Positions 26,520 to 38,678 of a stretch of 41,855 nt of DNA are shown one piece after another. The translations under genes and the position numbers were made by a program. Every line of letters starts with the position of its first letter. Within the stretch, counting starts at the first letter, position 1. The DNA comes from Elusimicrobia bacterium CG03_land_8_20_14_0_80_50_18. GTDB lineage: Bacteria; CG03. The stretch is from NCBI GenBank assembly GCA_002780705.1, contig PEUP01000004.1, forward strand, positions 1 through 41,855, given 5' to 3'. The notes under the pieces are model-generated. The model did not search any database. It saw nothing but the letters and a program-made list of their open reading frames with translations, and was not told the DNA's origin.

Positions 26520-27518
26520 TCAAACGACTATGGGCAAATCCGCCCCGCAATTGGCGCAGCGGCTGCCGTGAAGAGCTTTGATCTCCACGCTGTAGCCCTC
26601 GCGGGCTATGAGGAGCGCCCGGCAATGCGGGCAATATGTGCCCGTCCGGGCGCTGACATTGCCCTGATAAACAAAATCAAGTTTCCTGATGGCCAGATCC
26701 CTCAGCTTATCAAGCGTCCGCAAAGATGTGGGCGGTGTTTTCTGTTTATACGCAGGGAAATACCTTGATAAATGAAGCGGGATCGCCGGGGAGAGCGCCC
26801 AGATCCAGTCTATCATTTCCCTGAAATCATTCTCGTCGTCGTTTAAGCCCGGTATCACACAGAAGGTCAGCTCAATGTGTTTGCCGGCTTTAACAAACAT
26901 CTCCACAGTCCGCATAACGCTGTCCAGATCCCCGAGGCAGTATTTTTTATACGGCTCTTGGCGGAAAAATTTTATATCCACATTCGCCGCGTCTATCAAA
27001 GGCATCAGTAAAGCGAGAGGTTTCTCATTAATGTATCCGTTCGTCACCAGCACATTTTTCAGCGAGAGGCCTCTGAACAGCTCCGCGCAGTCTCTCACAA
27101 ATTCAAAATTGATGAGCGGTTCATTATAAGTGTAAGCGATGCCGACGGAATTATATTTTTGAGCCAGAGCCGCGAGTTCCTCCGGCGTTGCCTCGCGCAG
27201 ACTTATGTCCTCAACGGATACCTGCGATATACTGTAATTCTGGCACCAGGGACAGGTGAAATTACAGCCCACACTGCCTATGGAAAGGATTTCTCTGCCC
27301 GGGAAAAAATTATATAAAGGTTTTTTTTCAAGAGGGTCAATGCTCACGGAAGACAGTTTACCGTAAGTCAGCGCGTACAAAACACCGTCGGAGTTTTGCC
27401 TTACGCCGCATGAACCCTTTTTCCCAGGCCTGATCACGCACATCCGCGGGCAGAGCTCACAGCGCAAAACATCTTTGCCCGGGCCGTAGCGCGAATAAAA
27501 AAGAGCTTCTTTCTCCAT
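26520..27518 (-). CDS. AmmeMemoRadiSam-system-type radical SAM enzyme (PFL-activase-like)
   Basis: The N-terminal CELCPRMCVIRPGKKGSCGVR cluster, the radical-SAM CxxxCxxC (GCNFTCPWCQN), and the C-terminal CPHC...CANCG ribbon together match this family. I chose the ATG at comp. 27516-27518, preceded by GAGGGGA; the track start at 27530 is a TTG inside that SD. Confidence 0.75.
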   Translation of the reverse strand: MEKEALFYSRYGPGKDVLRCELCPRMCVIRPGKKGSCGVRQNSDGVLYALTYGKLSSVSIDPLEKKPLYNFFPGREILSIGSVGCNFTCPWCQNYSISQVSVEDISLREATPEELAALAQKYNSVGIAYTYNEPLINFEFVRDCAELFRGLSLKNVLVTNGYINEKPLALLMPLIDAANVDIKFFRQEPYKKYCLGDLDSVMRTVEMFVKAGKHIELTFCVIPGLNDDENDFREMIDWIWALSPAIPLHLSRYFPAYKQKTPPTSLRTLDKLRDLAIRKLDFVYQGNVSARTGTYCPHCRALLIAREGYSVEIKALHGSRCANCGADLPIVV

Positions 27519-27615
27519 ATTTCCCCTCAAATTATTTTGTGCCCATCTTTTTTATAATTGAAACTGCCAATATTATGATCTTCTCGCGCAGTTTTAGATT
27601 CTTGTCAGACATTGG

Positions 27616-28434
27616 CTATTTCAACCTCTTGATATTTTTATTACTAATCAGCGATTTCATCTGAGTGATAGCTATTTTGTTGAGCTGCATAAGCCGCTCG
27701 CTTTGCGCCAGCCCCTGATGAATCAAAACGGAATTAATGCTTTCAAGATTGGAAAGAACAACCAATTGTTCAATTGCCGCATAGTCACGGATGTTACCCT
27801 TTGCAATGGGATTTTCATCCCGCCATTCTTTAGCTGTTTTCCCGAACAATGCCATATTGAGCATATCCGCTTCTGAAGCATAAACAAAGTTAATTTGCTG
27901 TTTAGTCAGTTCTTTCGGTATAAGGTTATCCTTGATTGCATCGGTATGAATCCGGTAATTGACCTTAGCAAGGGTCCGCTGAAAATTCCAATCCAGTTTC
28001 AACCGTTTATTTTCATCATCTTTTAATCGCTGAAATTCCTTAATGAGATATATTTTGAACTCAGGACTTAGCCAACTACCAAACTCAAAAGCGATATCAC
28101 GATGGGCAAAAGTTCCACCGCCATAACGTCCGGCTTTTGAAATTATACCGATAGCATTTGTCGCTTCAATCCATTTGCGGGGTGTTAGGTTAAAACTGTT
28201 TAAACCAGCCTGACTTTTAAAGGTCACGAATCCGTTACCTTTAAAATCAGGGTTATGAAGTTCCTCCCATATACCGATAAACTCAAGCGTATTACGATTA
28301 CGCATCCAACTGTAAATCATCGTATCATCACCAAAGTTTTTGACCATGTCTGTCAATGAAATATAATCATCATTATTTCTGCTAATAATTGTAATTTCCG
28401 TTTCTTTAACTATTATGGTCTTATTTTTTTTCAT
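27616..28434 (-). CDS. KilA-N domain-containing protein (phage/plasmid-type DNA-binding domain + conserved C-terminal domain)
   Basis: 272 aa. TIISRNNDDYISLTDMVKNF...MIYSWMRNRNTLEFIGIWEELHNPDF is a typical KilA-N/ORF6N N-terminus. The gene and both flanks are visibly more AT-rich than the neighbours. Confidence 0.75.
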   Translation of the reverse strand: MKKNKTIIVKETEITIISRNNDDYISLTDMVKNFGDDTMIYSWMRNRNTLEFIGIWEELHNPDFKGNGFVTFKSQAGLNSFNLTPRKWIEATNAIGIISKAGRYGGGTFAHRDIAFEFGSWLSPEFKIYLIKEFQRLKDDENKRLKLDWNFQRTLAKVNYRIHTDAIKDNLIPKELTKQQINFVYASEADMLNMALFGKTAKEWRDENPIAKGNIRDYAAIEQLVVLSNLESINSVLIHQGLAQSERLMQLNKIAITQMKSLISNKNIKRLK

Positions 28435-28541
28435 AAATCACCTCACTCCCCTTCCTTCAACGCTTATTTTATAGTTATTCAATCCCACATACGCGCCTGA
28501 TTCAAAGACATGAGTTCACCCTGCCATCCCCCTTGGAATCA

Positions 28542-28868
28542 TTACTTTTCCGGCGTTTCCCAGAGGCGTTCTATCCCGTAAAATTTACGCGACTCCTCGG
28601 TAAAAACATGTATCACGGTGTCTTCGCAGTCCACAAGAAGCCATTGTTGCGCTTTCATACCCTCGCTGTGCCGCGAACCGCCGATAGCTTTCAGGCCCTT
28701 GTCTATCTCGCGGGCGAGCGACAACAGATGCCTCGGGGAAGTGGCCGTCATGATAACATGGAACCTGCCGCAGGTATCAAACTTCGCGAGGTCCAGTATT
28801 TTTATGTCTTCGGCCTTCATTTTTTCCGCTATCTCAAGCGCCATCTCAACTTTCTTATTTTTTTTCAT
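28542..28868 (-). CDS. rsfS: Ribosome silencing factor RsfS (iojap)
   Basis: 108 aa, ...DIKILDLAKFDTCGRFHVIMTATSPRHLLSLAREI...WLLVDCEDTVIHVFTEESRKFYGIERLW. Confidence 0.9.
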   Translation of the reverse strand: MKKNKKVEMALEIAEKMKAEDIKILDLAKFDTCGRFHVIMTATSPRHLLSLAREIDKGLKAIGGSRHSEGMKAQQWLLVDCEDTVIHVFTEESRKFYGIERLWETPEK

Positions 28869-30072
28869 TCAGAAATTCCTCCGGGAAATCATCCCCCACA
28901 ACAACAGACACATCAACCATGCGGTCAGGGTCCATATCCGTGCGCACGCGGCTGCAGCCGAGTATCTTCGCCGTCCGGACCGCCTTTGAGAGCTCCCCGG
29001 TCCTGGCAATAACTTCGGTGTATTTTTTATAGCTTCCCCAGTTACCCCACAGCACAACATCACAGCCGTAACCGCGCAATTTCTCGGAAAGAGCCTCGGC
29101 AAGGCCGCTTGTCCCGCTGGCGTTAAAAACCTCCGCCTGTATGCCTTCCAGACTGTCGGGGCCGCGTCTTATCACAAAAGGCCGGATCTTTGACCTCGGC
29201 CAAAGCTCTTTTTCAGAACCCGCTATGGAAGCTTTGATCTCTCCGGCCGCTTTCTCATCCAGTCTCCACACATCTTTAGCGCCGATGCGCTGCGATTCTC
29301 CCGGCAATATCTGATATCTCTGGTGCTCAGCGTCAAAGGTGCGGAACACATCGGCCAGGACAAGTAGATCCTGCCATTTGAAATTCGTAAAAATATCTTT
29401 GCGGTATATCCTGACAAACTCCGGCAGCGCCGATATAATGTTGACATCAAAACAGTGCGCTATAAGATTCCTGACGAAGTCCTGCTGCCTTTTGATGCGC
29501 CCCATGTCGCCCAGCGCCGAATGCCTGTAACGCACATATTTGAGCGCGTCGGCGCCGGACATCATGTAATCGCCGGGCTCGAAGTGAATGTGAAGCCCCC
29601 CCCAGTAATCGTCATAATGCATGGGTATATCAACGGTCACCGGAATTCTGCCCAGAGCGTCAATGACATGTACAAAGACATCAAATGTGATTACAATGTG
29701 ATAATCAAATACCACGCCGAGGAATTTTTCAAGCTCACTTTTAAACTCAAGAATACCTTTATCCATGCCGTATCGCCTTGTGTTAAGATAGAGTACCTCG
29801 CTGAGTTTGCGCGGGATCCAGCTCCTTTGCTCATCCCATTTGATCAGCACATCGCGGGGCACGGAAACAATATCAATGAAACGGGTCTTCGGTTCGTAAC
29901 TCAGCCACAGCACAACATCGGAATGAGAGCCTCCCATCACCTGATCTGCCCCGACCAGCAGCATATTGATCCTTTCGCCTCTTACGCATTTTAAAAAAAA
30001 TCCGCTCCGGAAAAACAATGCGGCCGCTAAAGCCGCCAGGAACAAAACAAAAGCTGCAAAAACTTTTTTCAC
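28855..30072 (-). CDS. LCP-family (LytR-CpsA-Psr) protein with C-terminal LytR_C-like domain
   Basis: 405 aa. N-terminal anchor, then INMLLVGAD...HSDVVLWLSY...IDIVSVPRDV...RYRH..GDMGRIKRQQDF. The C-terminal region resembles LytR_C (VFNASGTSGLAEALSEKLRGYGCDV). Confidence 0.8.
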   Translation of the reverse strand: MKKVFAAFVLFLAALAAALFFRSGFFLKCVRGERINMLLVGADQVMGGSHSDVVLWLSYEPKTRFIDIVSVPRDVLIKWDEQRSWIPRKLSEVLYLNTRRYGMDKGILEFKSELEKFLGVVFDYHIVITFDVFVHVIDALGRIPVTVDIPMHYDDYWGGLHIHFEPGDYMMSGADALKYVRYRHSALGDMGRIKRQQDFVRNLIAHCFDVNIISALPEFVRIYRKDIFTNFKWQDLLVLADVFRTFDAEHQRYQILPGESQRIGAKDVWRLDEKAAGEIKASIAGSEKELWPRSKIRPFVIRRGPDSLEGIQAEVFNASGTSGLAEALSEKLRGYGCDVVLWGNWGSYKKYTEVIARTGELSKAVRTAKILGCSRVRTDMDPDRMVDVSVVVGDDFPEEFLNEKK

Positions 30073-30635: not shown

Positions 30636-31883
30636 TTATTTTCTGATCTGGCCGCTGCCGGATATGATATATTTGTACGATGTTAATTCCTCAAGGCCCA
30701 CGGGCCCGCGGGGATGGAGTTTCTGATTTGATATCCCTATCTCGGCGCCCATACCGAATTCGCCGCCGTCGGTAAACCGGGTTGAGGCATTGTGGTAGAG
30801 ACAGGCGGCGTCAACCGCGCTGAAAAATGTCTTCGCGGCATTTTTGCCGGAAGCGACTATGGCCTCGGAATGGCCTGAGCCGTGCGTGTTTATAAACTCG
30901 CAGGCATCATCTATCCCGCTGACGACTTTTATGGATATTATCTTAGCCAGATATTCGGTATCCCAGTCCGCGGGCGACGCGGCTTTTATATCCGGCAGAA
31001 TCTTTCTTGTCTCCGGGCAGCCCCTCATCTCAACCCCGTTTGATGCATAAACCCTGTGTATCATGGGCAAAAATTTCTTTGCGGCGTCTTTGTGCACCAG
31101 CAGATTCTCTATGGCGTTGCACACACCAGGCCGCGACACCTTTGCGTTGAGCGCTATGTCAACGGCCATTTTCATGTCAGCGTCTTTGTGCACATAAAGA
31201 TTGCAAACCCCTTTTCCGTGATAGATCACGGGGATTCGCGATTTTTTAACGACAGCGTTAATAAGGCCCTCACCGCCGCGGGGGATCACCGCGTCTATGA
31301 GGCCGTTCATCTTTAGAAGACTGTCAACTGTCCGCCGGGAACTATCTTCCACGAAAAACACCGCGTCTTTTATCTCGGCGGGCACGGCTGTCATGACAGC
31401 GTCATAAACGGCCCTATTGCTTTTGACGGCATCGGAGCCGCCGCGGAGAATCACCGCGTTACCCGATTTAAGGCACAGCGCCGCGACATCGCTGGTGACA
31501 TTCGGTCGGGATTCATATATCACCATCAATGTGCCCAGCGGAACGGAGACCTTCCTTATATTAAGACCGTTCGGCCTTTTTCTGACAGACAGCACCCTGC
31601 CCAACGGCGAGGGAAGACGCGACAGATCAACGACCTGGGAGGCCATGGCGCGTATTCTTTTTCTGTCCAGACTCAGCCTGTCTATGAAAGCGGCATCCTT
31701 CCCCGAAAAAAGAGCCCTGCTTATATCTTTTTTATTGGCGGCGATTATTTTGCTTTCGCATCCTATGATGTTCCGGGCTATTTTCCTGAGCATGCTGTTG
31801 ATATCGGAATCTTTCATCCGCTCAAGTATTCTGCCCTGCCGCCGCATCCGGCGGAAAATCTCGCGGTAATCCGTTTGATTCAT
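30636..31883 (-). CDS. proA: Glutamate-5-semialdehyde dehydrogenase (gamma-glutamyl phosphate reductase)
   Basis: 415 aa. ALDH-fold ProA pattern with the catalytic Cys context [14 protein letters not shown] and C-terminal [13 protein letters not shown]. Confidence 0.92.
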
Positions 31884-32518
31884 CTGTTCTCTTTTATATC
31901 AGGAAGCTCTTTGAGAGCCTCTCTGATTTTCTCTTCAGGATATGCGTAATCTGTCAGATTGCCCTCAAAATAAGCGTCGTATGAACTCATGTCAAAATGG
32001 CCGTGGCCGCTTAGGCAGAAAACGATGCACTTTTCCTCGCCGGTCTCCTTGCACTTCAAGGCCTCGTCAATCGCCGCTCTTATCGCATGCGAGGATTCCG
32101 GAGCGGGTATTATGCCCTCCGTCCTGGTGAAAAGAACGCCGGCCTCTTTGTTGAAATAGGCCTGCGCCACGGAAGTGTTGGGCTTATGGCTTCCCGCCGG
32201 AGAAACGCTCTCGTCCTTGAAATAGATTCTTGCCGGTGTTTTCAGAGCTTTTTCAAGACGGGTCGCTCTTTTAAGCGGCGAAGGCCGCCATATCTTATAT
32301 ATTTCCCTGACCTGCTCAGGGATCTCTATCCAGCGCTCCGTTGACATCTCCTGCTTGATCAGACTCTCTGGAAAAATTGCCAAGAGGTCTTCCGGACCAA
32401 GCGGCTGTCCCGTTTTAGGATTGAGCGGCGGCGCCAGCGGTTGGGGAAGATCAGCCTGGATGTTATACCACGCCTCGGGAATTTCTTTTTCTGAAAGATA
32501 AATTTTTTTATCGGCCAC
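31880..32518 (-). pseudogene. TrpB2-type (TrpB-like PLP enzyme) gene carrying a large in-frame internal deletion (N-terminal ~127 aa joined directly to C-terminal ~85 aa)
   Basis: 212-aa ORF with a GTG start and GGAGG 4 nt upstream. The N-part is [13 protein letters not shown]...[30 protein letters not shown]. It is followed immediately by [49 protein letters not shown], which in full-length TrpB2 (~430-450 aa) lies about 240 residues further on. The core, including the GGGSN phosphate loop, is absent. The junction is near comp. 32135-32140. Confidence 0.7.
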
Positions 32519-32576
32519 AGCGCCTCCAAATCGGGACGGCTATGTCCCGGCTCTTCACTAACCTTCATACAGTCGG

Positions 32577-32606
32577 ATATTACCAAATTTTGACGGGCAT
32601 GGGCAA
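32577..32606 (-). promoter_or_regulatory. Sigma70 promoter with extended -10 (TTGCCC-N18-[TGG]TAATAT) for the trpB2-remnant/proA operon
   Basis: Reverse strand: TTGCCC (comp. 32601-32606), 18-nt spacer ending in TGG, and TAATAT (comp. 32577-32582). It lies about 55 nt upstream of the GTG start. Confidence 0.5.
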
Positions 32607-32659
32607 GGGTAAGGTTTTTCGTGATTCAATAACTTAATGACTGGGTTAGGTCCTTATGT

Positions 32660-32879
32660 AATTTGACCTTGTTCATAATCATAGGCCCAAACCGCTTTAG
32701 AGCGATATAGGAAAATTTAGGAGAAAAAATCGTTAAGAATTGCGACTGTCTGACGACCCCGTAGGGGGAGGATAAGCAACCTGCCTACCGGCAGGCAGGT
32801 TTAGATTTTTGGTCCGTCAAAAATTTTCCGTCTAGCGAAAAAGCGGTTTGGGCCTATGATTGGGTTCTGAAATTTGACC
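32660..32879. mobile_element. MITE-like or structured-RNA element: a 185-nt core (32677-32861) closed by a perfect 22-bp inverted repeat and flanked by the 9-bp direct repeat AATTTGACC
   Basis: AATCATAGGCCCAAACCGCTTT (32677-32698) is the exact reverse complement of 32840-32861. AATTTGACC occurs at 32660-32668 and 32871-32879. No ORF lies inside. Further internal complementary segments are listed in the findings. Confidence 0.55.
32778..32810 (+). terminator. Terminator-like hairpin inside the element: AACCTGCCT-ACCGGC-AGGCAGGTT followed by TAGATTTTT
   Basis: 9-bp GC-rich stem (32778-32786 / 32793-32801), a 6-nt loop, and a T5 run at 32806-32810 on the + strand only. Confidence 0.45.
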
Positions 32880-32902
32880 GCGGGAAAATTATGTGGTACA
32901 TT
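32874..32902 (+). promoter_or_regulatory. Sigma70 promoter with extended -10 (TTGACC-N17-[TGG]TACATT) for the tandem-HhH protein gene
   Basis: TTGACC at 32874-32879 (part of the right 9-bp direct repeat), a 17-nt spacer ending in TGG, and TACATT at 32897-32902. The SD GAGGGAGG lies before the ATG at 32956. Confidence 0.45.
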
Positions 32903-32955
32903 AAGGTGTTGGTCCGCTTATAGTTGCATCGAGTATCCTGAGGGAGGTAAATTTT

Positions 32956-33696
32956 ATGAAACGAATCATTCCGGTGCTATTTTGCGCGATTGTGTTGCTT
33001 TTTCCGTCCAGTGTCGCTGCGAAATCAAAGAAAGCGCCCAAGGCCGAGGCAAAATCAAGTTTTGAAAAAATCAATCTTAACGAAGTCAGTGAATACGATT
33101 TGAAGCAGATACCGGGAATTTCCGCATCAAAAGCCAAAGCGCTGCTCGCCTACCGCGACGAAAAAGGCGAAATAAAATCAATCGAAGAGCTAAAAGAAAT
33201 AAACCATGAAACCAAAAGCGGAAAAACGAGCTATGATTTCGCCACATCAAAAGGCGCCTGGACAAAACCCATAAAACTTCTTATGGACGCCGATGTGTTT
33301 ACAGTCAGCGGAGGTGTGGGTGTGGTCGATCAGAACGCGCTTCATAAGCATCTGTTTCCGAAACCCCGAGATATAAACAGCGCGTCGTCGGCTGAACTGA
33401 CAGCATTACCGGGTATATCCAAAGCGAACGCCCAGCACTTAATAGACAACAGGCCCTTTTCATCCATAGACGGTCTGAAAGACATTTCTTATGAAACCAA
33501 AAGCGGAAAAACCGGCTACGCCTTTGCCACATCCAAAGGCGTATGGAAAAAAGATATTAAAATTCTGATTGACAGCGGCCGCCTTGTTTGCGCGGGCTCA
33601 ACAAAAAGTTCCAAGAAAGCCGCTCCGGCCAAAGAATCAAAAAGTGACGAGCAGGACGACGGCCAGGAAGAATCAGACGAACCGGAAGAATATTAA
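32956..33696 (+). CDS. Secreted protein with two tandem ComEA-like HhH modules, each followed by a conserved ETKSGKTxYxFATSKGxW extension; acidic C-terminal tail
   Basis: 246 aa with signal peptide MKRIIPVLFCAIVLLFPSSVAA. Module 1 is INLNEVSEYDLKQIPGISASKAKALLAYRDEKGEIKSIEELKEINHETKSGKTSYDFATSKGAWTKPIKLLMD. Module 2 is DINSASSAELTALPGISKANAQHLIDNRPFSSIDGLKDISYETKSGKTGYAFATSKGVWKKDIKILID. The tail is DEQDDGQEESDEPEEY. Confidence 0.65.
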   Translation: MKRIIPVLFCAIVLLFPSSVAAKSKKAPKAEAKSSFEKINLNEVSEYDLKQIPGISASKAKALLAYRDEKGEIKSIEELKEINHETKSGKTSYDFATSKGAWTKPIKLLMDADVFTVSGGVGVVDQNALHKHLFPKPRDINSASSAELTALPGISKANAQHLIDNRPFSSIDGLKDISYETKSGKTGYAFATSKGVWKKDIKILIDSGRLVCAGSTKSSKKAAPAKESKSDEQDDGQEESDEPEEY

Positions 33697-33849
33697 AAAG
33701 CTTTAGCCAATTTAATTGGTTTAATTTGAAATTTTAGTATTGTGCGACTGCGGGCAGGGCTGTTTATTCGGTGGCAATCAACTGGCGCGAGCTTTGACAA
33801 TTGTTTTTAGCACACAAATTTTCTACCATATAGTCTGAGGCGGCTTAAT

Positions 33850-33865
33850 TGTTTCACATGAAACA
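33850..33865. promoter_or_regulatory. parS: parS-like centromere site TGTTTCACATGAAACA (one mismatch to TGTTNCACGTGAAACA)
   Basis: 16-mer located 20 nt upstream of the patatin-like gene and about 1.5 kb upstream of parA. Flanking Ts and As extend the arms to TTGTTTCA/TGAAACAA. It is the only such near-match I found in the window. Confidence 0.65.
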
Positions 33866-33885: not shown

Positions 33886-34803
33886 ATGAAAAAATTTAAG
33901 CTGGGTATTGCTCTGGGCGGAGGCGGCGCCCGGGGCCTGGCCCATATCGGCATACTGGATGCCCTCGCTAAAGGCGGGCTGTCCATAGATGCCATATCAG
34001 GGACAAGCATGGGCGCGGTAATCGGCGCCTTGTACGCGGTGGATGCGGACGAAAGGGCGGTTGAGAAAAAGGTCGCGGGATTTATAACCAGCGGGCCTGC
34101 CCGGGAAGCCGCGTGTTTTTTTTCAAAAAAAGCTTCATCACGGCCTTTCGGCAAAATTCTTTCCGCGGCGAAACAATTTTTTATAATGAACCGGGCGGTG
34201 ACAGGGCCATCTATTCTCAGCGCCGAACAGGCGTCGGCCATATTCAACGAGTTTCAAGTACCGGAAACTTTTGATGGTCTGAAGATCCCTTTTTATTCTG
34301 TGGCCACGGATCTGGGCACGGGGGACGAAAAAGTTTTCTGCAGCGGGAAACTGAAAGCAGCCGTGCTCGCTTCTTCTTCAATCGCGGGAATCTTCCCGCC
34401 CGTTCAAATCAACGGCTCTTACTATCTCGACGGTGGCTCGGTCAATTCCGTTCCTGTCTCCGCGCTCCAGCCCTACTGTGATTTTGTTATAGCCTGTGAT
34501 GTGAGGCCGGCAAGAAAAATAATTTCCCGTTTTGACCAGGGCCTGGCCATTCTTTCCCGCACAGACGCCATATCTTCCTACAAGCTTGCCGATCTGCAGA
34601 TAGAGAAGGCTGATTTTATCATACGGCCGAACACTCATAACATCCACTGGGCTGATTTCAAAAAGATGGGCTATTGCATAGAGCAGGGCCGTATAGCCGC
34701 TCAAGCCTGTCTGAAAGAACTTAAAAAAGCCATTTGGCGGGCTAAAGTCAGGAGTTTGCCGGGGAGATTGTTTTCAAAAAATGCCGCAGTCCTTAGTAAA
34801 TAA
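33886..34803 (+). CDS. Patatin-like phospholipase (RssA-type)
   Basis: 305 aa. Oxyanion motif GGGGARG, nucleophile elbow GTSMGA, and catalytic Asp motif YLDGGSVNSVP. GGAAGGAG lies upstream of the ATG. Confidence 0.88.
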   Translation: MKKFKLGIALGGGGARGLAHIGILDALAKGGLSIDAISGTSMGAVIGALYAVDADERAVEKKVAGFITSGPAREAACFFSKKASSRPFGKILSAAKQFFIMNRAVTGPSILSAEQASAIFNEFQVPETFDGLKIPFYSVATDLGTGDEKVFCSGKLKAAVLASSSIAGIFPPVQINGSYYLDGGSVNSVPVSALQPYCDFVIACDVRPARKIISRFDQGLAILSRTDAISSYKLADLQIEKADFIIRPNTHNIHWADFKKMGYCIEQGRIAAQACLKELKKAIWRAKVRSLPGRLFSKNAAVLSK

Positions 34804-35371
34804 TAAATTTCTGATTGCGCCCGAAGCGGCGGAAAAGCTGAAACTCTATATGGACACGCTGAAGAAATGGAACCGGCGTTTCAATCTCACTTCCTTTGAT
34901 GAGAATCAACTGTGGGAGGAGGCCGTGGAAAGCTCCGTTATCTTCGCCGACGCCATAACAGCCATACTGCCGGAGCAGAAGCCCCTGACTTTATGCGACA
35001 TAGGCTCCGGCGCCGGCATACCCGGCATCATCCTTAAAATAGTGATGCCTGAAGCGCAAGTCGATCTGGTGGAATCAAACGGTAAAAAGGCGGGTTTTTT
35101 GAGTGAGATTAAAGAATTGCTGGAACTGGACGGGCTCAGGGTGGTGAACAAAGACGCGCAGGAGTTTGCCTTAAGCGATAAAAAATTATACAATGTGGTC
35201 ACAGGAAGGGCTTTTGGCAAGAAATTTCTGAAACAGGCCTTCCGGCTTGTTCTTCCGGGAGCTTATGTGATGTATTATAAGAAAACGCTGAAAAAAGGAG
35301 AGTTCATGAAAGAGCCCGATCTCATAAGGGATTACGGGGGAGCTTTCATTCTGATCTGGAAAAATGGGTGA
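34781..35371 (+). CDS. rsmG: 16S rRNA (guanine527-N7)-methyltransferase RsmG (GidB)
   Basis: 196 aa. ...WNRRFNLTS..., the SAM motif DIGSGAGIPGI, and its position directly upstream of parA. Confidence 0.88.
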   Translation: MPQSLVNNKFLIAPEAAEKLKLYMDTLKKWNRRFNLTSFDENQLWEEAVESSVIFADAITAILPEQKPLTLCDIGSGAGIPGIILKIVMPEAQVDLVESNGKKAGFLSEIKELLELDGLRVVNKDAQEFALSDKKLYNVVTGRAFGKKFLKQAFRLVLPGAYVMYYKKTLKKGEFMKEPDLIRDYGGAFILIWKNG

Positions 35372-36131
35372 AATCATAGCTATAGCCAACCAGAAGGGCG
35401 GCGTGGGAAAAACCACCACCTCTGTCAATCTGGCCAAGGCGCTGGTGATGAGAAGAAAAAAAATTCTTCTTATCGATATTGACCCGCAAGCCAACTGCAG
35501 CTCGGGCATGGGCGTGGAAAACAGCGCCTCCAACATCTACGATGTTCTAATCAGGGGCTCCCTGGCCGGCGCGGTGACAGCCCGCGATCACTTCCCTGAC
35601 ATTGTGCCATCAACGAGGGACCTTACCGGGGCTGAAATAGAACTTGTGGGGATGGAAGGCAGGGAATACCGGTTGAAGCAGGCTCTTGCCTCTGTCAGGG
35701 ACACTTACGACTATATACTCATAGACTGCCCACCCTCACTGGGATTGCTTACCATTAACGCTCTCACGGCCTCTGACAGCCTGCTGATTCCCCTTCAGTG
35801 CGAATTCTACGCGCTTGAGGGCCTCGGTAAGCTGTTGAACACCCTCAAATATGTGAGAGACGCTTTCAATGAGCATCTCCGTATCAAAGGGGTGGTTCTC
35901 ACCATGTATGACAGCCGCCTGAATTTAACCGCCCAGATAAGCGATGAAATCAAGAATTTCTTCGGCGACAATCTCTTTAGCTCCGTTATACCGAGAAATG
36001 TGAGGCTTGCCGAAGCCCCGAGTTTCGGCAAGGACATCTTTGAATATGACAGGCATTCGGCCGGCGCCGTCAGCTATATGAAACTCGGCGACGAATTCCT
36101 GGCCCGCGAGAAAAGGGATGCGAAAAAATAG
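35364..36131 (+). CDS. parA: Chromosome-partitioning ATPase ParA/Soj
   Basis: 255 aa. Deviant Walker A NQKGGVGKTTTS, then IDCPPSLG and VIPRNVRLAEAPSFGK. Confidence 0.93.
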   Translation: MGEIIAIANQKGGVGKTTTSVNLAKALVMRRKKILLIDIDPQANCSSGMGVENSASNIYDVLIRGSLAGAVTARDHFPDIVPSTRDLTGAEIELVGMEGREYRLKQALASVRDTYDYILIDCPPSLGLLTINALTASDSLLIPLQCEFYALEGLGKLLNTLKYVRDAFNEHLRIKGVVLTMYDSRLNLTAQISDEIKNFFGDNLFSSVIPRNVRLAEAPSFGKDIFEYDRHSAGAVSYMKLGDEFLAREKRDAKK

Positions 36132-37575
36132 CATCTACAACTGGCGCGATTTCAGCGTAGAGGATCTGGTCAAAAAAAAATCCGGCTTAAAAATAAGCGT
36201 GATAATCCCCACCCGCAATGAAGCCGCCACAATAGGCAAAATCATACACGCTATACGCGGGAGCCTTGTTCTGAAGCACCCTCTGGTTGATGAGATAATA
36301 GTGCTTGACGGAGGGTCTTCCGATTTAACAAGAACGCTTGCCCGCAGAGAGGGGGCTCTCGTGCGGCGGGATTCGGATATCGTGCCCGCCCTGGGGAACT
36401 TCCAGGGGAAAGGGAATGCCCTTTATAAGAGTTATTTCGCCAGCACCGGCGATATATTAGCCTTTGTAGACGGTGATATACGCAATTTCTCGCCGCGCTT
36501 TATAATCGGCATTGTCGGCCCCCTTCTCACAGATAAGAAGATATCCTTTGTCAAAGCTTTCTATAAGCGGCCACTTATGGTTTCCGGCAAATTCAAAAAG
36601 GGTGAGGGCGGCCGGGTGACAGAAATACTCGCGCGGCCGATTCTCAACACCTTTTTTCCGGAACTGGCCGATATCCGACAGCCGCTTTCTGGTGAGTACG
36701 CTGTCAGGCGGGATCTTTTCAGGAAGCTGTCCATTCCCTCTGGATACGGCGTAGAACTGGCTTTTCTGATTGAGATCCTGCACATAGCCGGCCGCAAGGC
36801 AATCGCCCAGGCGGATCTGAGTGAAAGAAAGCACAGGAATCAAACACTGCACGCGTTGGGCAAAATGAGTTTTGAGGTGCTGCACTCTTTTCTGCATTAC
36901 GCACAGAAGGTAAAAAAGCTCAGGGTGAGCGCTCTCTCTGAAAATTATTACGACCTGTCCAAAAACAGCATATACAAAATATCGCAAAAATATTACCCGC
37001 CTGTCAGCGGGATGCTCAAGACAACAGAGCTCATATTCCTGCGCCATGGCGAAACCGACTGGAACAGGGAAAAACGCATCCAGTCGAGGCAGGATATTCC
37101 GCTCAATCCAACAGGGAAAAAGCAGGCGCAGAGAGCCGCCGCGGCCCTCAAAAAAGAAACAATATGCGCCGTCTACAGCTCGCCTTTGTCCAGGGCGCTC
37201 GACACCGCCCTGGTTATAGCCCGAGAGCACGGCCTGCCTGTCCGATGCGACAAACGCCTGCTTGAAATATCTCACGGGGACTGGTCCGGTAAAAAAGAGC
37301 ATTGGCTGAGCGCAAAATATCCGGGGCAATACAGAAAATGGAAAAAGGAAGCCTGGAAACATCTGCCTCCCGGTGCGGAATCATGGGAAGAACTGACGAA
37401 GCGTCTAAGATCATTTTTGGACCACATCAGGAAAAATCACAGCGGGGAGAGGGTCCTGGTGGTTTCCCACAGGGGCGCAATCGCCGGGGCGCTGACAGTT
37501 ATAAGGAAGAAGCCCTTGAGCTATATAAACAGATATCTGCCCGCTAACTGCCGGCCGGTAAAAATCAAATTGTAA
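36118..37575 (+). CDS. Two-domain fusion: GT2 glucosyl-3-phosphoglycerate-synthase-like glycosyltransferase (aa ~1-300) + histidine-phosphatase (phosphoglycerate-mutase family) domain (aa ~305-485)
   Basis: N-domain: ISVIIPTRNEAATIGKII, VDEIIVLDGGSSD, GKGNALYKS, FVDGDIRNF, GGRVTEILARP, QPLSGEYAVRR, GYGVELAFLIE and ERKHRNQ match my recollection of GpgS (Rv1208-type). C-domain: LIFLRHGETDWN (RHG motif), SSPLSRALDTA and VVSHRG (second His). Confidence 0.7.
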   Translation: MRKNSIYNWRDFSVEDLVKKKSGLKISVIIPTRNEAATIGKIIHAIRGSLVLKHPLVDEIIVLDGGSSDLTRTLARREGALVRRDSDIVPALGNFQGKGNALYKSYFASTGDILAFVDGDIRNFSPRFIIGIVGPLLTDKKISFVKAFYKRPLMVSGKFKKGEGGRVTEILARPILNTFFPELADIRQPLSGEYAVRRDLFRKLSIPSGYGVELAFLIEILHIAGRKAIAQADLSERKHRNQTLHALGKMSFEVLHSFLHYAQKVKKLRVSALSENYYDLSKNSIYKISQKYYPPVSGMLKTTELIFLRHGETDWNREKRIQSRQDIPLNPTGKKQAQRAAAALKKETICAVYSSPLSRALDTALVIAREHGLPVRCDKRLLEISHGDWSGKKEHWLSAKYPGQYRKWKKEAWKHLPPGAESWEELTKRLRSFLDHIRKNHSGERVLVVSHRGAIAGALTVIRKKPLSYINRYLPANCRPVKIKL

Positions 37576-37590
37576 ATGGAGGACTGAAAA

Positions 37591-38412
37591 ATGAAAAAAG
37601 CTGTGCTGGGACGAGGGCTCAAGGCGCTTATCCCCGAAAACGAAGAAGGACGCATCCACATGATCAGCGTTTCAGAAATACAGCCGGGCACGCACCAGGC
37701 CAGGAAAAGTTTCAACGCGGACAGCATTACGGCTCTGGCGGAAACGCTGAAGCAGGACGGGATAATACAACCGCTTGTCGTTTTACCGTCGGGGACAGGC
37801 TGGAAACTGATAGCCGGCGAAAGACGCCTGCGGGCCGCGAAACTGGCTGGATTCAAAAAGGTGCCGGTCACAATCAAAGACACGGATGAAGCCTCGGCCG
37901 CTTTTTTATCACTGATAGAAAACCTGCAGAGGGAAGACCTGAACCCGCTTGATGAGGCCAGGGGAATTGAAGCGCTGATGAAAAAATTTTCCCTCACACA
38001 GGAAGCTGTCGCCGAAAGAGTGGGCAAAAACCGTTCCACTGTGGCAAACACCCTCAGGCTCCTGAAATTTCCGGAAGACATCGTCGCGGCTATAGCCGAC
38101 GGGAAAATAAGCGAGGGGCACGCCCGCGCGCTGTCAGTGATAAAAGACCCGCGAAAAAGAAAACACATCATACACCGGATCATTAACGAGCATCTCTCTG
38201 TGCGCGAAACAGAATTTCTCGCCACGGGAAGAAAAAAAATCGCTAAAACCCGGATGGCCTCCGCCGAGATAAAGGAAATAGCTGAAACTTTAGAGAGCGC
38301 GCTTTCTACAAAAGTCGAGGTACATGCGAACAAAAAAAATCAGGGTCACATCAAAATTCATTTTTTCTCGTCAGAAGAATTGGACCGTATCATCAAAAGA
38401 CTTTCCCGGTAG
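37591..38412 (+). CDS. parB: Chromosome-partitioning protein ParB/Spo0J
   Basis: 273 aa. GRGLKALI N-terminus, the ParB box IAGERRLRAAKLAG, and the HTH LTQEAVAERVGKNRSTVANTLRLL. GGAGGA lies upstream of the ATG. Confidence 0.93.
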   Translation: MKKAVLGRGLKALIPENEEGRIHMISVSEIQPGTHQARKSFNADSITALAETLKQDGIIQPLVVLPSGTGWKLIAGERRLRAAKLAGFKKVPVTIKDTDEASAAFLSLIENLQREDLNPLDEARGIEALMKKFSLTQEAVAERVGKNRSTVANTLRLLKFPEDIVAAIADGKISEGHARALSVIKDPRKRKHIIHRIINEHLSVRETEFLATGRKKIAKTRMASAEIKEIAETLESALSTKVEVHANKKNQGHIKIHFFSSEELDRIIKRLSR

Positions 38413-38678
38413 CTGAACAGCGACGAGAAAACCGCCCAGAGCGCGCAAACGCTTATGATTTCACCGGAAATATAATCGGACAGGAGAATTATCATGGCGA
38501 AGAAAACGATGATATAAACAACATGGAAGAGCCATGAATTTTTTTTGGACCGCGCGCGGAAACGCGGGTTCACCCCGAGCGCAAACAAAATACCGAGGAA
38601 GACGCCCATAAGCGGATTCAGGCCAATATACCGCACAAAGATCAAAACAGCCAAAAAAGCGGGCAACATATAAATCAT
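38358..38678 (-). CDS. Small integral membrane protein (about 3 TM helices), unknown function
   Basis: 106 aa with a strong SD (GGGAGG, 5-nt spacer). It has hydrophobic helices. Its last 55 nt overlap the 3' end of parB in convergent orientation. Confidence 0.5.
   Translation of the reverse strand: MIYMLPAFLAVLIFVRYIGLNPLMGVFLGILFALGVNPRFRARSKKNSWLFHVVYIIVFFAMIILLSDYISGEIISVCALWAVFSSLFSYRESLLMIRSNSSDEKK

What the first reader, a model, noticed from the sequence alone, without database searches (positions are those of the whole stretch)
36118..37575. GpgS-like glycosyltransferase fused to a histidine phosphatase, inserted between parA and parB
Seen directly: one 485-aa ORF joins a GT2 domain to a C-terminal RHG...SH histidine-phosphatase domain. 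The GT2 motifs are IPTRNEA, LDGGSSD, GKGNA, DGD, GGRVTE, QPLSGEY, GYGVE and RKHRN. The ORF overlaps the parA stop by 14 nt and ends 15 nt before the parB SD, so it sits inside the rsmG-parA-parB operon.

Established knowledge: glucosylglycerate is made by GpgS followed by GpgP. The mycobacterial GpgP (Rv2419c) belongs to the histidine-phosphatase superfamily. The fused mannosylglycerate synthase/phosphatase I know of uses a HAD-type phosphatase. parA and parB are normally adjacent.

Inference: this may be a single-polypeptide glucosylglycerate (compatible solute or polysaccharide primer) pathway that is co-transcribed with the segregation genes. Both the fusion and the location are unusual.
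Basis: partly seen in the sequence, partly recalled or inferred. Interest (0 to 1): 0.65.

Follow-up and report, generated by a model that had tools for sequence, protein, structure and literature searches.

The report
Fused glucosylglycerate enzyme between parA and parB
A single gene in an uncultured Elusimicrobia bacterium joins the two enzymes that most likely make the stress-protective sugar glucosylglycerate, and throughout a small clade it sits, unusually, between the chromosome-partition genes parA and parB.

Summary
ORF 36118-37575 (+) encodes 485 aa. Its N-terminal half is a GT81 glucosyl-3-phosphoglycerate synthase (NCBIfam equivalog 332 bits, cut-off 262). Its C-terminal half is a branch-1 histidine phosphatase (Pfam E 2.5e-54). 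All catalytic residues of both halves are intact. The model is confident (pLDDT 93.9, pTM 0.91).

It is not an assembly artefact. The same fusion occurs in about 13 protein clusters (48-100% identity), including seven species-representative genomes. In every related locus with enough flanking sequence it lies downstream of rsmG-parA and upstream of parB.

The parA-parB gap is a variable carbohydrate slot. One relative adds a sugar-nucleotide synthesis gene. Another adds beta-phosphoglucomutase, GH65 and GT4 genes. One nested relative has an empty site. Distant Elusimicrobia have adjacent parA-parB.

The synthase-phosphatase link is supported independently. Aerophobetes carry the two as overlapping separate genes, at least three other lineages fused them separately, and giant-virus contigs carry the pair.

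The most likely function is one-polypeptide synthesis of glucosylglycerate. The donor nucleotide is uncertain, because the residue that excludes GDP in the mycobacterial enzyme is glycine here. Mannose as the sugar is not excluded. I found no published description. This is a new variant of a known pathway, of moderate interest.

The parts
36118..37575 (+). Fusion gene of 485 aa, a predicted bifunctional glucosyl-3-phosphoglycerate synthase/phosphatase
   Evidence: ORF. Two-domain architecture. Conserved as a single ORF in about 13 clusters. AF2 model pLDDT 93.9, pTM 0.91.
36127..36939 (+). GT81 (GT-A fold) glucosyl-3-phosphoglycerate synthase domain, aa 4-274
   Evidence: NCBIfam NF010496 332.3 bits against a cut-off of 262. 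PDB sequence hits 3f1y 4.6e-58 and 4y6n 1.2e-54. Foldseek TMt 0.80-0.92 to GT81 structures only.
36469..36477 (+). Asp-x-Asp metal/nucleotide motif, D118-G-D120 (Mtb D134-S-D136)
   Evidence: Invariant in 16 fused proteins. Residue mapping. Role taken from PMC2581804.
36682..36699 (+). QPLSGEY donor-sugar loop, aa 188-194 (Mtb PLSGE, with Ser210 and Tyr213)
   Evidence: Pereira et al. 2008 propose that this hydrogen-bonded loop discriminates against mannose.
36310..36312 (+). Gly65, the position of Mtb Ser81, which clashes with the guanine 2-NH2 group
   Evidence: Gly or Ala in all Elusimicrobia fusions, Ala in R. xylanophilus MpgS, Ser in nearly all standalone homologues. Role of Ser81 from PMC2581804.
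36940..37026 (+). Linker, the former C-terminal tail of GpgS, aa 275-303. It is predicted to be structured (two short strands).
   Evidence: pLDDT about 88-93, with strands at 276-279 and 284-287. Conserved within the clade.
37027..37554 (+). Histidine phosphatase (branch 1) domain, aa 304-479, the predicted glucosyl-3-phosphoglycerate phosphatase
   Evidence: Pfam PF00300 184 bits. PDB hits PspA 4ij5 2.6e-29, PhoE 2.4e-23 and Rv2419c GpgP 1e-20. Foldseek TMt 0.70-0.83.
37042..37050 (+). RHG motif, R309-H310-G311 (the catalytic His nucleophile). Its catalytic partners are R359, E383 and H451.
   Evidence: R309, H310, G311, R359 and E383 are invariant and H451 is at least 90% conserved in 16 fused proteins.
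35364..36131 (+). parA (soj). Its stop overlaps the fusion gene by 14 nt.
   Evidence: The overlap with the fusion start is conserved in relatives, mostly at 4 nt.
37591..38412 (+). parB (spo0J), starting 15 nt after the fusion stop, with GGAGGA in the spacer
34781..35371 (+). rsmG (gidB), overlapping the parA start
   Evidence: TIGR00138 112 bits against a cut-off of 99.5.
33886..34803 (+). Patatin-like phospholipase gene, the first gene of the same-strand cluster
   Evidence: Syntenic in all relatives.
33850..33865 (.). parS site TGTTTCACATGAAACA, one mismatch to consensus, at the head of the cluster
   Evidence: No shuffle of 100 reached the observed 2 matches, which are one palindromic site read on both strands. 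One or two copies sit at the equivalent place in 11 related loci.
38522..38536 (+). First terminator-like hairpin on the + strand after parB. This is weak evidence.
   Evidence: The total number of terminator-like sites is not above the shuffle expectation.

Best explanation
The gene encodes a bifunctional enzyme that makes glucosylglycerate in two steps on one polypeptide. The N-terminal GT81 domain transfers glucose from an NDP-glucose to the 2-OH of D-3-phosphoglycerate, with retention of configuration, and this gives glucosyl-3-phosphoglycerate. The C-terminal histidine-phosphatase domain removes the 3-phosphate through a phospho-His310 intermediate and gives glucosylglycerate. The fusion most likely arose when the stop codon was lost between two overlapping adjacent genes, an arrangement still seen in Candidatus Aerophobetes. 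In the ancestor of a small Elusimicrobiota clade the gene entered the rsmG-parA-parB cluster. There it is translationally coupled to parA and probably expressed constitutively with the segregation genes, about 2.3 kb from parS. Shown here: domain identity, intact active sites, recurrence of the fusion, recurrence of the location, and repeated independent association of the two enzyme types. Inferred: substrates and products, the physiological role (compatible solute, nitrogen- or osmotic-stress solute, or glycoside primer), co-transcription, and possible use of a GDP- or ADP-linked donor because Gly65 replaces the Ser81 that excludes guanine in the mycobacterial enzyme.
For: GT half: it passes the NCBIfam GpgS equivalog cut-off, 332 bits against 262. 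It is 45% identical to Mtb GpgS over the trimmed domain. All 41 top structural matches are GT81 enzymes. The Mtb-state residues are conserved: E54, K114, D134, D136, Y165, R185, T187, PLSGEY, Y229, E232, R256, H258, N260 and M269 (roles from PMC2581804). Phosphatase half: His_Phos_1 E 2.5e-54, and the R309/H310/R359/E383/H451 catalytic set is conserved. It is a short domain of about 185 aa that resembles phosphatases (PspA, PhoE, CobC, Rv2419c) more than mutases. There is precedent: Rv2419c is a histidine-phosphatase GpgP (PMC3240985). Functional linkage: Aerophobetes have gpgS and a 184-aa His_Phos gene overlapping as TTGA. The Elusimicrobia phosphatase half is sister to those genes in 171/200 bootstraps. 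Independent fusions exist with other architectures: Usp-GT-HP in P0014, the reversed HP-GT order in P0015, and a separate clade containing P0124 and P0184. All 11 giant-virus contigs with a GT81 gene also have a His_Phos gene within 2 kb. Pathway context: a relative has an NDP-sugar synthesis gene (nucleotidyltransferase plus phosphohexomutase) directly upstream of the fusion, inside the parA-parB gap. Reality of the gene: it is the same ORF in NCBI, JGI, ENA and Logan assemblies.
Against: No biochemical data exist for any member. The phosphatase half scores higher against phosphoserine phosphatase PspA (106 bits) and PhoE (86 bits) than against Rv2419c (78 bits), and it reaches no NCBIfam equivalog cut-off. 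Its substrate therefore rests on genomic association, not orthology. The best PDB sequence hit of the GT half is the dual-specificity R. xylanophilus MpgS. Gly65 at the Ser81 position, and the neighbouring gene in L004 that resembles Man-1-P guanylyltransferase, leave a GDP-mannose donor possible. The GT-domain tree does not place Aerophobetes as sister (0/200), so the gene-pair origin is supported by the phosphatase half only. Promoter and terminator scans are no better than shuffles.
Confidence: 0.7

Rival explanations
1. The enzyme makes mannosylglycerate, not glucosylglycerate. The GT81 domain would act as a mannosyl-3-phosphoglycerate synthase using GDP-mannose, as the R. xylanophilus enzyme can, and the phosphatase would remove the phosphate from mannosyl-3-phosphoglycerate.
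For: The top PDB sequence and fold hits are R. xylanophilus MpgS, 3f1y and 3kia. Gly65 (Ala in P0011) occupies the Ser81 position, as does Ala in the Rubrobacter enzyme, and this removes the proposed clash with guanine. In L004 the upstream gene best matches a mannose-1-phosphate guanylyltransferase model, at 260 bits but below the 440 cut-off, and is fused to a phosphohexomutase.
Against: The query keeps the GpgS states where the Rubrobacter enzyme differs: E54 (V), S210 (A), Y213 (F) and H258/N260 (N/H). The PLSGE-Tyr network is the feature proposed to exclude mannose. Identity is 45% to Mtb GpgS and 37% to Rubrobacter MpgS. The query passes the NCBIfam GpgS equivalog cut-off. The Pfam GT55 MPG synthase model scores 16.8 bits, below its cut-off of 27.
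Confidence: 0.15
2. Glucosylglycerate is not the end product in these bacteria. It would instead be the acceptor or primer for further glycosylation, giving mannosylglucosylglycerate, glucosylglucosylglycerate or an MGLP-like polysaccharide. This reading is compatible with the best explanation for the enzyme itself.
For: A GT4 glycosyltransferase follows the pair directly in Aerophobetes, with a faint match to the mannosylglucosylglycerate synthase model. In the AUK224 lineage a GT4, a GH65 and a beta-phosphoglucomutase-family gene lie with the fusion between parA and parB. The P0014 fusion lies behind two GT4 genes and next to an alpha-amylase-family gene.
Against: In the window and its closest relatives the fusion is the only gene in the gap, and no GT4 or other sugar-glycerate gene occurs in the 42-kb window. 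The match to the MggS model is far below its cut-off, 43 bits against 640.
Confidence: 0.25
3. The C-terminal domain is not the pathway phosphatase. It would act on something else (phosphoserine like PspA, alpha-ribazole phosphate like CobC, or as a phosphoglycerate mutase that supplies or regulates 3-phosphoglycerate), and glucosyl-3-phosphoglycerate would be released or processed by another enzyme.
For: The best solved relative is the PspA phosphoserine phosphatase. The best NCBIfam models are PspA and CobC, both below their cut-offs. A serA-like 3-phosphoglycerate dehydrogenase gene lies a few genes upstream in several relatives.
Against: The GT81 and His_Phos types are associated repeatedly and independently, by fusion in both orders, by overlap and by adjacency, in bacteria and in giant viruses. 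That is hard to explain unless they act in one pathway. The domain is short and lacks the insertions and tail of cofactor-dependent mutases, judging by alignment extents. The Mtb precedent shows that this superfamily supplies GpgP.
Confidence: 0.08
4. The gene, or its position, is an assembly chimera or a frameshift artefact that joins two separate genes.
For: The window comes from a metagenome-type assembly, and its exact protein is on record from only one 6.4-kb contig.
Against: The same architecture and position are found in at least 10 independent assemblies at 48-89% identity, from four data sources. The linker is conserved and confidently modelled. GC content shows no discontinuity.
Confidence: 0.01

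Closest known systems
Mycobacterial two-gene pathway: GpgS (Rv1208, GT81) plus GpgP (Rv2419c, histidine phosphatase superfamily)
   Same: The same two enzyme families carry out the same predicted reactions. The GT half shares all catalytic and substrate-binding residues described for Rv1208, at 45% identity. The phosphatase half has the same fold and catalytic set as Rv2419c.
   Different: In mycobacteria the two genes are separate and unlinked (PMC3240985). Here they form one polypeptide. The phosphatase half is not a close orthologue of Rv2419c, scoring 78 bits against 106 for PspA. Ser81 is replaced by Gly. The organism is a Gram-negative-type Elusimicrobiota bacterium with LptF/LptG genes.
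Rubrobacter xylanophilus MpgS/GpgS (GT81, PDB 3f1y, 3kia, 3o3p), a dual mannose/glucose enzyme
   Same: It is the best solved sequence and fold relative of the GT half. It has a small residue at the Ser81 position. According to PMC3240985, that genome also relies on Rv2419c-like histidine phosphatases rather than HAD MpgP.
   Different: It is not fused. It has PLAGEF instead of PLSGEY, V instead of E54, and the H258/N260 pair is swapped. Identity is only 37%.
Bifunctional mannosylglycerate synthase MgsD of Dehalococcoides (MpgS fused to MpgP).
   Same: It has the same logic: a synthase and a phosphatase of a sugar-glycerate pathway on one polypeptide.
   Different: It uses a GT55 synthase and a HAD-type phosphatase. 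Here the synthase is GT81 and the phosphatase is a histidine phosphatase. The GT55 Pfam model is below its cut-off, and there is no HAD domain.
Fused glucosylglycerol-phosphate phosphatase/synthase of heterotrophic bacteria such as Marinobacter (abstract of PMC10873239)
   Same: It is a compatible-solute synthase and its phosphatase fused into one protein.
   Different: The solute is different (glucosylglycerol, with glycerol-3-phosphate as acceptor), and so are the enzyme families.
Hydrogenobacter thermophilus PspA, a metal-independent phosphoserine phosphatase (PDB 4ij5)
   Same: It is the closest solved relative of the C-terminal half: 106 bits, 36% identity in the structural alignment, TMt 0.81. 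It has the same catalytic residues.
   Different: It is a standalone enzyme of serine biosynthesis. Nothing in its context links it to glycosyltransferases. The NCBIfam PspA equivalog is far below its cut-off, 131 bits against 350.

Membership tests
GT81 glucosyl-3-phosphoglycerate synthase (GpgS) | Sequence match above the curated family threshold | tested here: met
   NCBIfam NF010496 equivalog, 332.3 bits against a cut-off of 262, covering aa 4-274 of the query and positions 11-281 of the 307-position model.
GT81 glucosyl-3-phosphoglycerate synthase (GpgS) | GT-A fold that superposes on solved GpgS/MpgS structures | tested here: met
   AF2 model pLDDT 93.9. Foldseek ranks 1-41 are all GT81 structures, TMt 0.80-0.92, rmsd 1.8-3.9 A.
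GT81 glucosyl-3-phosphoglycerate synthase (GpgS) | Asp-x-Asp motif, the Lys114-Asp134-Glu232 network and the His258 metal ligand | tested here: met
   D118/D120, K98, E213 and H239 are invariant in all 16 fused proteins. Roles are from PMC2581804.
GT81 glucosyl-3-phosphoglycerate synthase (GpgS) | 3-phosphoglycerate-binding GGRVTE segment (Val186 main-chain N and Thr187 side chain) | tested here: met
   G164-G165-R166-V167-T168-E169 is invariant. Role.
GT81 glucosyl-3-phosphoglycerate synthase (GpgS) | Glucose-specific PLSGE loop with its stabilising network (Ser210, Tyr213, Tyr165, Ser163) | tested here: inconclusive
   The PLSGEY motif and Y149 (Mtb Tyr165) are present. Ser163 is Ala, as in most standalone homologues. 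The rule is a structural proposal, not a tested predictor.
GT81 glucosyl-3-phosphoglycerate synthase (GpgS) | UDP preference enforced by Ser81 | tested here: not met
   Gly65 occupies this position, and it is Gly or Ala in every Elusimicrobia fusion. This bears on the choice of donor nucleotide, not on family membership.
GT81 glucosyl-3-phosphoglycerate synthase (GpgS) | Catalytic activity: NDP-glucose + 3-phosphoglycerate gives glucosyl-3-phosphoglycerate | not testable with these tools
   This needs a recombinant enzyme assay.
Histidine phosphatase superfamily, branch 1 | Pfam His_Phos_1 match above the gathering threshold, and the fold | tested here: met
   184.4 bits against a cut-off of 21.7. 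Foldseek TMt 0.70-0.83 to PspA, PhoE and Rv2419c.
Histidine phosphatase superfamily, branch 1 | Catalytic core: RHG His nucleophile, second Arg, Glu proton donor and second His | tested here: met
   R309, H310, R359 and E383 are invariant, and H451 is at least 90% conserved.
Mycobacterial-type GpgP (Rv2419c orthologues) | Closest characterised relative is Rv2419c | tested here: not met
   PspA scores 105.9 bits and PhoE 86.5 bits, both higher than Rv2419c at 77.9 bits. The domain works like a GpgP by inference but is not shown to be its orthologue.
Mycobacterial-type GpgP (Rv2419c orthologues) | Specific hydrolysis of glucosyl-3-phosphoglycerate | not testable with these tools
   This is inferred from fusion and adjacency with GT81 in several independent lineages.
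HAD-type GpgP/MpgP (classical sugar-phosphoglycerate phosphatases) | HAD fold with the four invariant Asp motifs | tested here: not met
   No HAD family hit in the ORF. The description of classical GpgPs is from PMC3240985.
GT55 mannosyl-3-phosphoglycerate synthase (Osmo_MPGsynth) | Pfam PF09488 match above threshold | tested here: not met
   16.8 bits against a cut-off of 27, as a partial match only.
Chromosomal ParABS locus (rsmG-parA-parB with parS) | ParA (Walker ATPase), ParB (N-terminal, HTH and C-terminal domains), a nearby parS and an upstream rsmG | tested here: met
Chromosomal ParABS locus (rsmG-parA-parB with parS) | parA and parB directly adjacent | tested here: not met
   They are separated by the 1.46-kb fusion gene here, and by 1.5 to about 7 kb in relatives. 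They are adjacent in L081, L084 and L085.

The most novel reading that the evidence does not exclude
In this Elusimicrobiota clade the parA-parB gap would be a maintained cargo slot. It lies inside the ParB loading and spreading zone next to parS and at origin-proximal gene dosage. Its position would tie synthesis and turnover of a glycosyl-glycerate solute to the expression of the segregation operon, and so to replication and growth state. On this reading the location is regulatory, not accidental. The repeated turnover of carbohydrate genes at exactly this site (fusion alone; fusion plus an NDP-sugar synthesis gene; fusion plus beta-PGM, GH65 and GT4; empty) would reflect selection for that coupling.
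Probability: 0.1. Interest if true: 0.7.

Novelty: new variant of a known kind. Interest (0 to 1): 0.45.

Why it matters
So far glucosylglycerate synthesis has been described with separate enzymes, and the histidine-phosphatase type of GpgP is known only from Actinobacteria. This protein, its split counterpart in Aerophobetes and the independent fusions elsewhere indicate that the pairing of a GT81 synthase with a histidine phosphatase is widespread and ancient. They also supply a 'Rosetta-stone' argument that assigns a substrate to a subfamily of an otherwise hard-to-annotate phosphatase superfamily.

A single 485-aa enzyme that would turn an NDP-glucose and 3-phosphoglycerate into glucosylglycerate would also be a convenient biocatalyst.

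For chromosome biology, the locus is a clear and phylogenetically stable exception to parA-parB adjacency, with an empty-site relative available for comparison. It could be used to ask how much cargo the operon tolerates between its two genes and next to parS.

Tried and rejected
1. Literature. Seven full-text searches looked for a GpgS-phosphatase fusion, glucosylglycerate in Elusimicrobia, genes inserted between parA and parB, and the pathway in giant viruses. None gave a relevant report. PMC12057145 and the Borg preprint mention the terms only in passing.
2. Promoter and terminator scan of 33.6-39.2 kb. The counts equal the shuffle expectation, so the scan supports only the weak statement that no + strand terminator-like site lies inside the cluster.
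3. Repeat search around the gene for insertion scars or flanking direct repeats. Only short matches at chance level were found, so there is no sign of a mobile-element mechanism.
4. Composition. There is no GC anomaly at the gene, so recent horizontal transfer is not indicated.
5. Aerophobetes as sister to the fusion in the GT-domain tree. This was not recovered (0/200). Only the phosphatase half supports that relationship.
6. Other sugar-glycerate genes in the 42-kb window. None were found.
7. Alignment A3, which included locus translations and representative-library proteins, was not submitted to structure prediction because of the tool's input rule. A4 was used instead.
8. One search failed because of a bad coordinate range, and one search failed on a file path. 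Both were repeated correctly.
9. The domain trees are simple neighbour-joining trees with bootstraps, not maximum-likelihood trees. Deep branching order should not be over-read.


Full report
OBSERVATION. All the listed motifs are present. The parA stop codon (TAG, 36129-36131) lies 11 nt downstream of the ORF's ATG, which gives a 14-nt overlap. The ORF's TAA (37573-37575) is followed by a 15-nt spacer containing GGAGGA and then the parB ATG at 37591. So the '15 nt' is the distance to the parB start codon, not to its SD. The neighbours are bona fide rsmG, parA and parB. The rest of the window (recG, spoT/relA, clpB, lptF/lptG and others) shows an ordinary chromosomal region with no GC anomaly at the gene.

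WHAT THE TWO HALVES ARE. Residues 4-274 match NCBIfam's equivalog model for glucosyl-3-phosphoglycerate synthase at 332 bits, above the curated cut-off of 262. The generic Pfam GT2 model is also hit, and the GT55 mannosyl-3-phosphoglycerate synthase model is below its threshold. By sequence, the best solved relatives are the GT81 enzymes of Rubrobacter xylanophilus (MpgS/GpgS, E 4.6e-58) and Mycobacterium tuberculosis (GpgS, E 1.2e-54). Residues 304-479 are a branch-1 histidine phosphatase (Pfam E 2.5e-54). Their best solved relatives are Hydrogenobacter PspA (106 bits), Bacillus PhoE (86 bits) and then the mycobacterial glucosyl-3-phosphoglycerate phosphatase Rv2419c (78 bits).

STRUCTURE. 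An AlphaFold2 model built on 35 sequences is confident throughout (mean pLDDT 93.9, pTM 0.91), including the linker, which forms two short strands. Foldseek against the PDB returns only GT81 structures in ranks 1-41 (TMt 0.80-0.92), then PspA, Rv2419c and PhoE for the C-terminal half (TMt 0.70-0.83). None of the listed matches covers both halves.

ACTIVE SITES. I used the residue roles given in the M. tuberculosis GpgS structure paper (PMC2581804) and mapped them through an alignment that included the PDB sequences. The query has the Mtb state at Glu54 (E35), Lys114 (K98), Asp134/Asp136 (D118/D120), Tyr165, Arg185/Thr187 (GGRVTE 164-169), Pro-Leu-Ser-Gly-Glu-Tyr (189-194), Tyr229, Glu232 (E213), Arg256, His258 (H239), Asn260 and Met269. 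These are invariant across 16 fused proteins. The phosphatase catalytic set R309-H310, R359, E383 and H451 is likewise conserved.

DONOR SPECIFICITY. One informative difference is Mtb Ser81. The paper says its side chain would clash with the 2-amino group of guanine and so explains the enzyme's UDP preference. It is Gly65 here, and Gly or Ala in every Elusimicrobia fusion. It is Ala in the GDP-sugar-using Rubrobacter enzyme and Ser in nearly all standalone homologues. At the positions where the Rubrobacter mannose/glucose enzyme departs from GpgS (E54V, S210A, Y213F, and the swapped H258/N260 pair), the query keeps the GpgS state. I therefore favour glucose as the sugar, possibly from a purine-nucleotide donor, and I keep mannose as a rival.

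THE FUSION IS REAL AND RECURRENT. A search of 5.8 billion clustered proteins found the same two-domain architecture in 13 clusters at 48-100% identity. Where named, these come from Elusimicrobia MAGs and are annotated simply as glucosyl-3-phosphoglycerate synthase. The great majority of the family is standalone at about 320 aa. In the exhaustive 50%-identity library the whole Elusimicrobia group collapses into one representative. A scan of one genome per GTDB species found seven species representatives with the full-length fusion.

OTHER FUSIONS. Other architectures also exist:
- Usp-GT81-His_Phos (P0014, in a glycosyltransferase cluster).
- The reversed order His_Phos-GT81 (P0015).
- A divergent GT81-His_Phos clade comprising P0124, P0132, P0148, P0153 and P0184.
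In neighbour-joining trees the Elusimicrobia fusions are monophyletic in both halves (193/200 and 194/200). They never group with P0014 or P0015 (0/200). P0014 groups with Usp-GpgS proteins (200/200), and the divergent clade is separate (168/200). The two enzyme types have therefore been fused at least four times.

THE UNFUSED STATE. In three Candidatus Aerophobetes genomes a 323-341-aa GpgS is followed immediately by a separate 184-aa histidine phosphatase. In L015 the two genes overlap as TTGA. The Elusimicrobia phosphatase half is sister to these separate genes in 171/200 bootstraps. The GT half does not show the same relationship (0/200), so this origin is supported by one half only. Loss of the stop codon in such an overlapping pair is the simplest route to the fusion. 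This step is an inference.

THE LOCATION. Wherever enough flank is available, the Elusimicrobia-type fusion lies directly downstream of rsmG-parA, and its start overlaps the parA stop, mostly by 4 nt. I surveyed the clade with ParB as the query and looked at contexts:
- Window lineage, L003, L010-L012, L014 and L082: the gap holds the fusion alone.
- AUK228 (L004/L016): an 808-aa sugar-1-phosphate nucleotidyltransferase/phosphohexomutase gene plus the fusion.
- AUK224: the fusion plus a beta-phosphoglucomutase-family hydrolase, a GH65 enzyme and a GT4 transferase. This order was reconstructed from two contigs that overlap at 99.3% identity.
- L081 (Elusimicrobia CG08): nothing in the gap, although this genome shares the whole synteny.
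- L084 and L085 (more distant Elusimicrobia, ParB 44% identical): adjacent parA-parB.

GAIN OR LOSS. In a ParA+ParB tree the empty-site genome L081 nests inside the fusion-bearing group, as sister to the window's subclade (351/500). The topology that would place it outside all fusion-bearing genomes appears in 46/300 replicates. A single ancestral insertion with later loss is therefore favoured but not proven. No repeats or mobile-element genes flank the insertion.

parS AND TRANSCRIPTION. A near-consensus parS (33850-33865) sits at the head of the same-strand cluster patatin-rsmG-parA-fusion-parB and is conserved in 11 related loci. The cargo therefore lies about 2.3 kb from a ParB loading site. 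No terminator-like site occurs on the + strand between rsmG and the end of parB. This scan has little power.

MECHANISM. Steps shown: family membership of both halves, intact active sites, and a rigid, confidently modelled two-domain protein. Steps inferred: the GT81 domain makes glucosyl-3-phosphoglycerate from an NDP-glucose and 3-phosphoglycerate, the histidine-phosphatase domain hydrolyses it to glucosylglycerate through phospho-His310, and expression is coupled to parA and parB.

The assignment of the phosphatase substrate rests on three points:
- The mycobacterial precedent that this superfamily supplies GpgP, whereas classical GpgP/MpgP enzymes are HAD proteins usually encoded next to the synthase (PMC3240985).
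- The repeated, independent fusion or adjacency of the two families.
- An unexpected control. All 11 IMG/VR contigs with a GT81 homologue, several of them labelled giant-virus MAGs, also carry a histidine-phosphatase gene within 2 kb. In addition, the fused P0184 lies on a 201-kb contig with Nucleocytoviricota hallmark genes.

The physiological role (compatible solute, nitrogen-stress solute, or primer for larger glycosides) cannot be decided. GT4 genes next to the pair in Aerophobetes, AUK224 and the P0014 locus suggest further glycosylation in those lineages, but no such gene is near the fusion in this window.

COMPARISON AND NOVELTY. The protein works like the mycobacterial GpgS plus GpgP pair and is a member of GT81 by every testable criterion. 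Its phosphatase half is a member of the histidine phosphatase superfamily but not demonstrably an orthologue of Rv2419c. It resembles in logic, but not in families, the GT55-HAD mannosylglycerate fusion of Dehalococcoides (my own knowledge) and the fused glucosylglycerol-phosphate enzymes (PMC10873239 abstract). Public databases hold the sequences, named after the N-terminal half only. I found no paper describing the fusion, the split pair outside Actinobacteria, or cargo between chromosomal parA and parB. I rate it a new variant of a known kind, with moderate interest (0.45). The enzymology is predictable, but the fusion, its evolutionary recurrence and the stable position inside the segregation operon are real and undescribed.

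Noticed in passing
L086 5001-6686; L087-L097 (IMG/VR contigs): Giant-virus contigs carry the same enzyme pair. P0184, a GT81-His_Phos fusion, lies on a 201-kb, 25% GC contig with a D5-like primase-helicase, ubiquitin, TFIIS, Rpb6 and a ubiquitin-conjugating enzyme. All 11 IMG/VR loci with a GT81 homologue (several labelled GVMAG) also have a separate His_Phos gene of about 210-255 aa within 2 kb. Ten of the 11, and L086 as well, have QPLGGEY rather than QPLSGEY, which may mean a different sugar. I found no published mention.
   Followed up: partly
P0124 (protein; no locus fetched): A GT81-His_Phos fusion (530 aa; RefSeq member XP_066911316.1, 540 aa) is annotated in the cnidarian Clytia hemisphaerica on a 445-kb contig. 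It clusters with the giant-virus-associated fusions. It could be a horizontal transfer, an integrated viral element or contamination.
   Followed up: no
window 33850-33865: A parS site (TGTTTCACATGAAACA) lies between a promoter-like site (33807-33834) and the patatin gene that heads the rsmG-parA-parB cluster. One or two parS copies occur at the same place in 11 related loci.
   Followed up: yes
L013 4360-8285 joined with L083 1-5157: In the AUK224 lineage the parA-parB gap holds four genes: the fusion, a beta-phosphoglucomutase-family HAD hydrolase (TIGR02009 above cut-off), a 769-aa GH65 enzyme and a 392-aa GT4 transferase. This looks like a synthesis-plus-phosphorolysis module for an alpha-glucoside.
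   Followed up: partly
L004 3572-5998 (same as L016): An 808-aa fusion of a sugar-1-phosphate nucleotidyltransferase (left-handed beta-helix type; best model is mannose-1-phosphate guanylyltransferase, below cut-off) with a phosphohexomutase sits between parA and the GpgS fusion. That puts hexose-phosphate activation and glycosyl-glycerate synthesis side by side.
   Followed up: partly
window 38358-38678 (- strand): A conserved 106-aa ORF with no family hit, hydrophobic and probably a membrane protein, converges on parB and overlaps its 3' end by about 55 nt. A similarly placed, similar-sized ORF (95-106 aa) is called in every related locus examined, including the empty-site genome; I did not compare their sequences.
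   Followed up: no
window 27000-29000: The GC content dips to 0.44, against about 0.50 elsewhere, around a KilA-N domain gene (27616-28434, - strand). This may be a remnant of a mobile element or prophage.
   Followed up: no
proteins P0083, P0108, P0111, P0123 and following; loci L038-L067: Many GT81 GpgS homologues carry N-terminal extensions. About 600-aa forms carry universal stress protein (Usp) domains, one carries a PTS EIIA domain (P0111), and about 480-aa forms in Sporomusa and other Bacillota have a 180-aa extension. This suggests regulatory fusions are common in the family.
   Followed up: no
window 31000-33000: Cumulative GC skew reaches its minimum near 31-32 kb, and gene orientation switches from the - strand to the + strand at about 32.5-33 kb, just upstream of parS and the rsmG-parA cluster. 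This is consistent with a position close to the replication origin.
   Followed up: no
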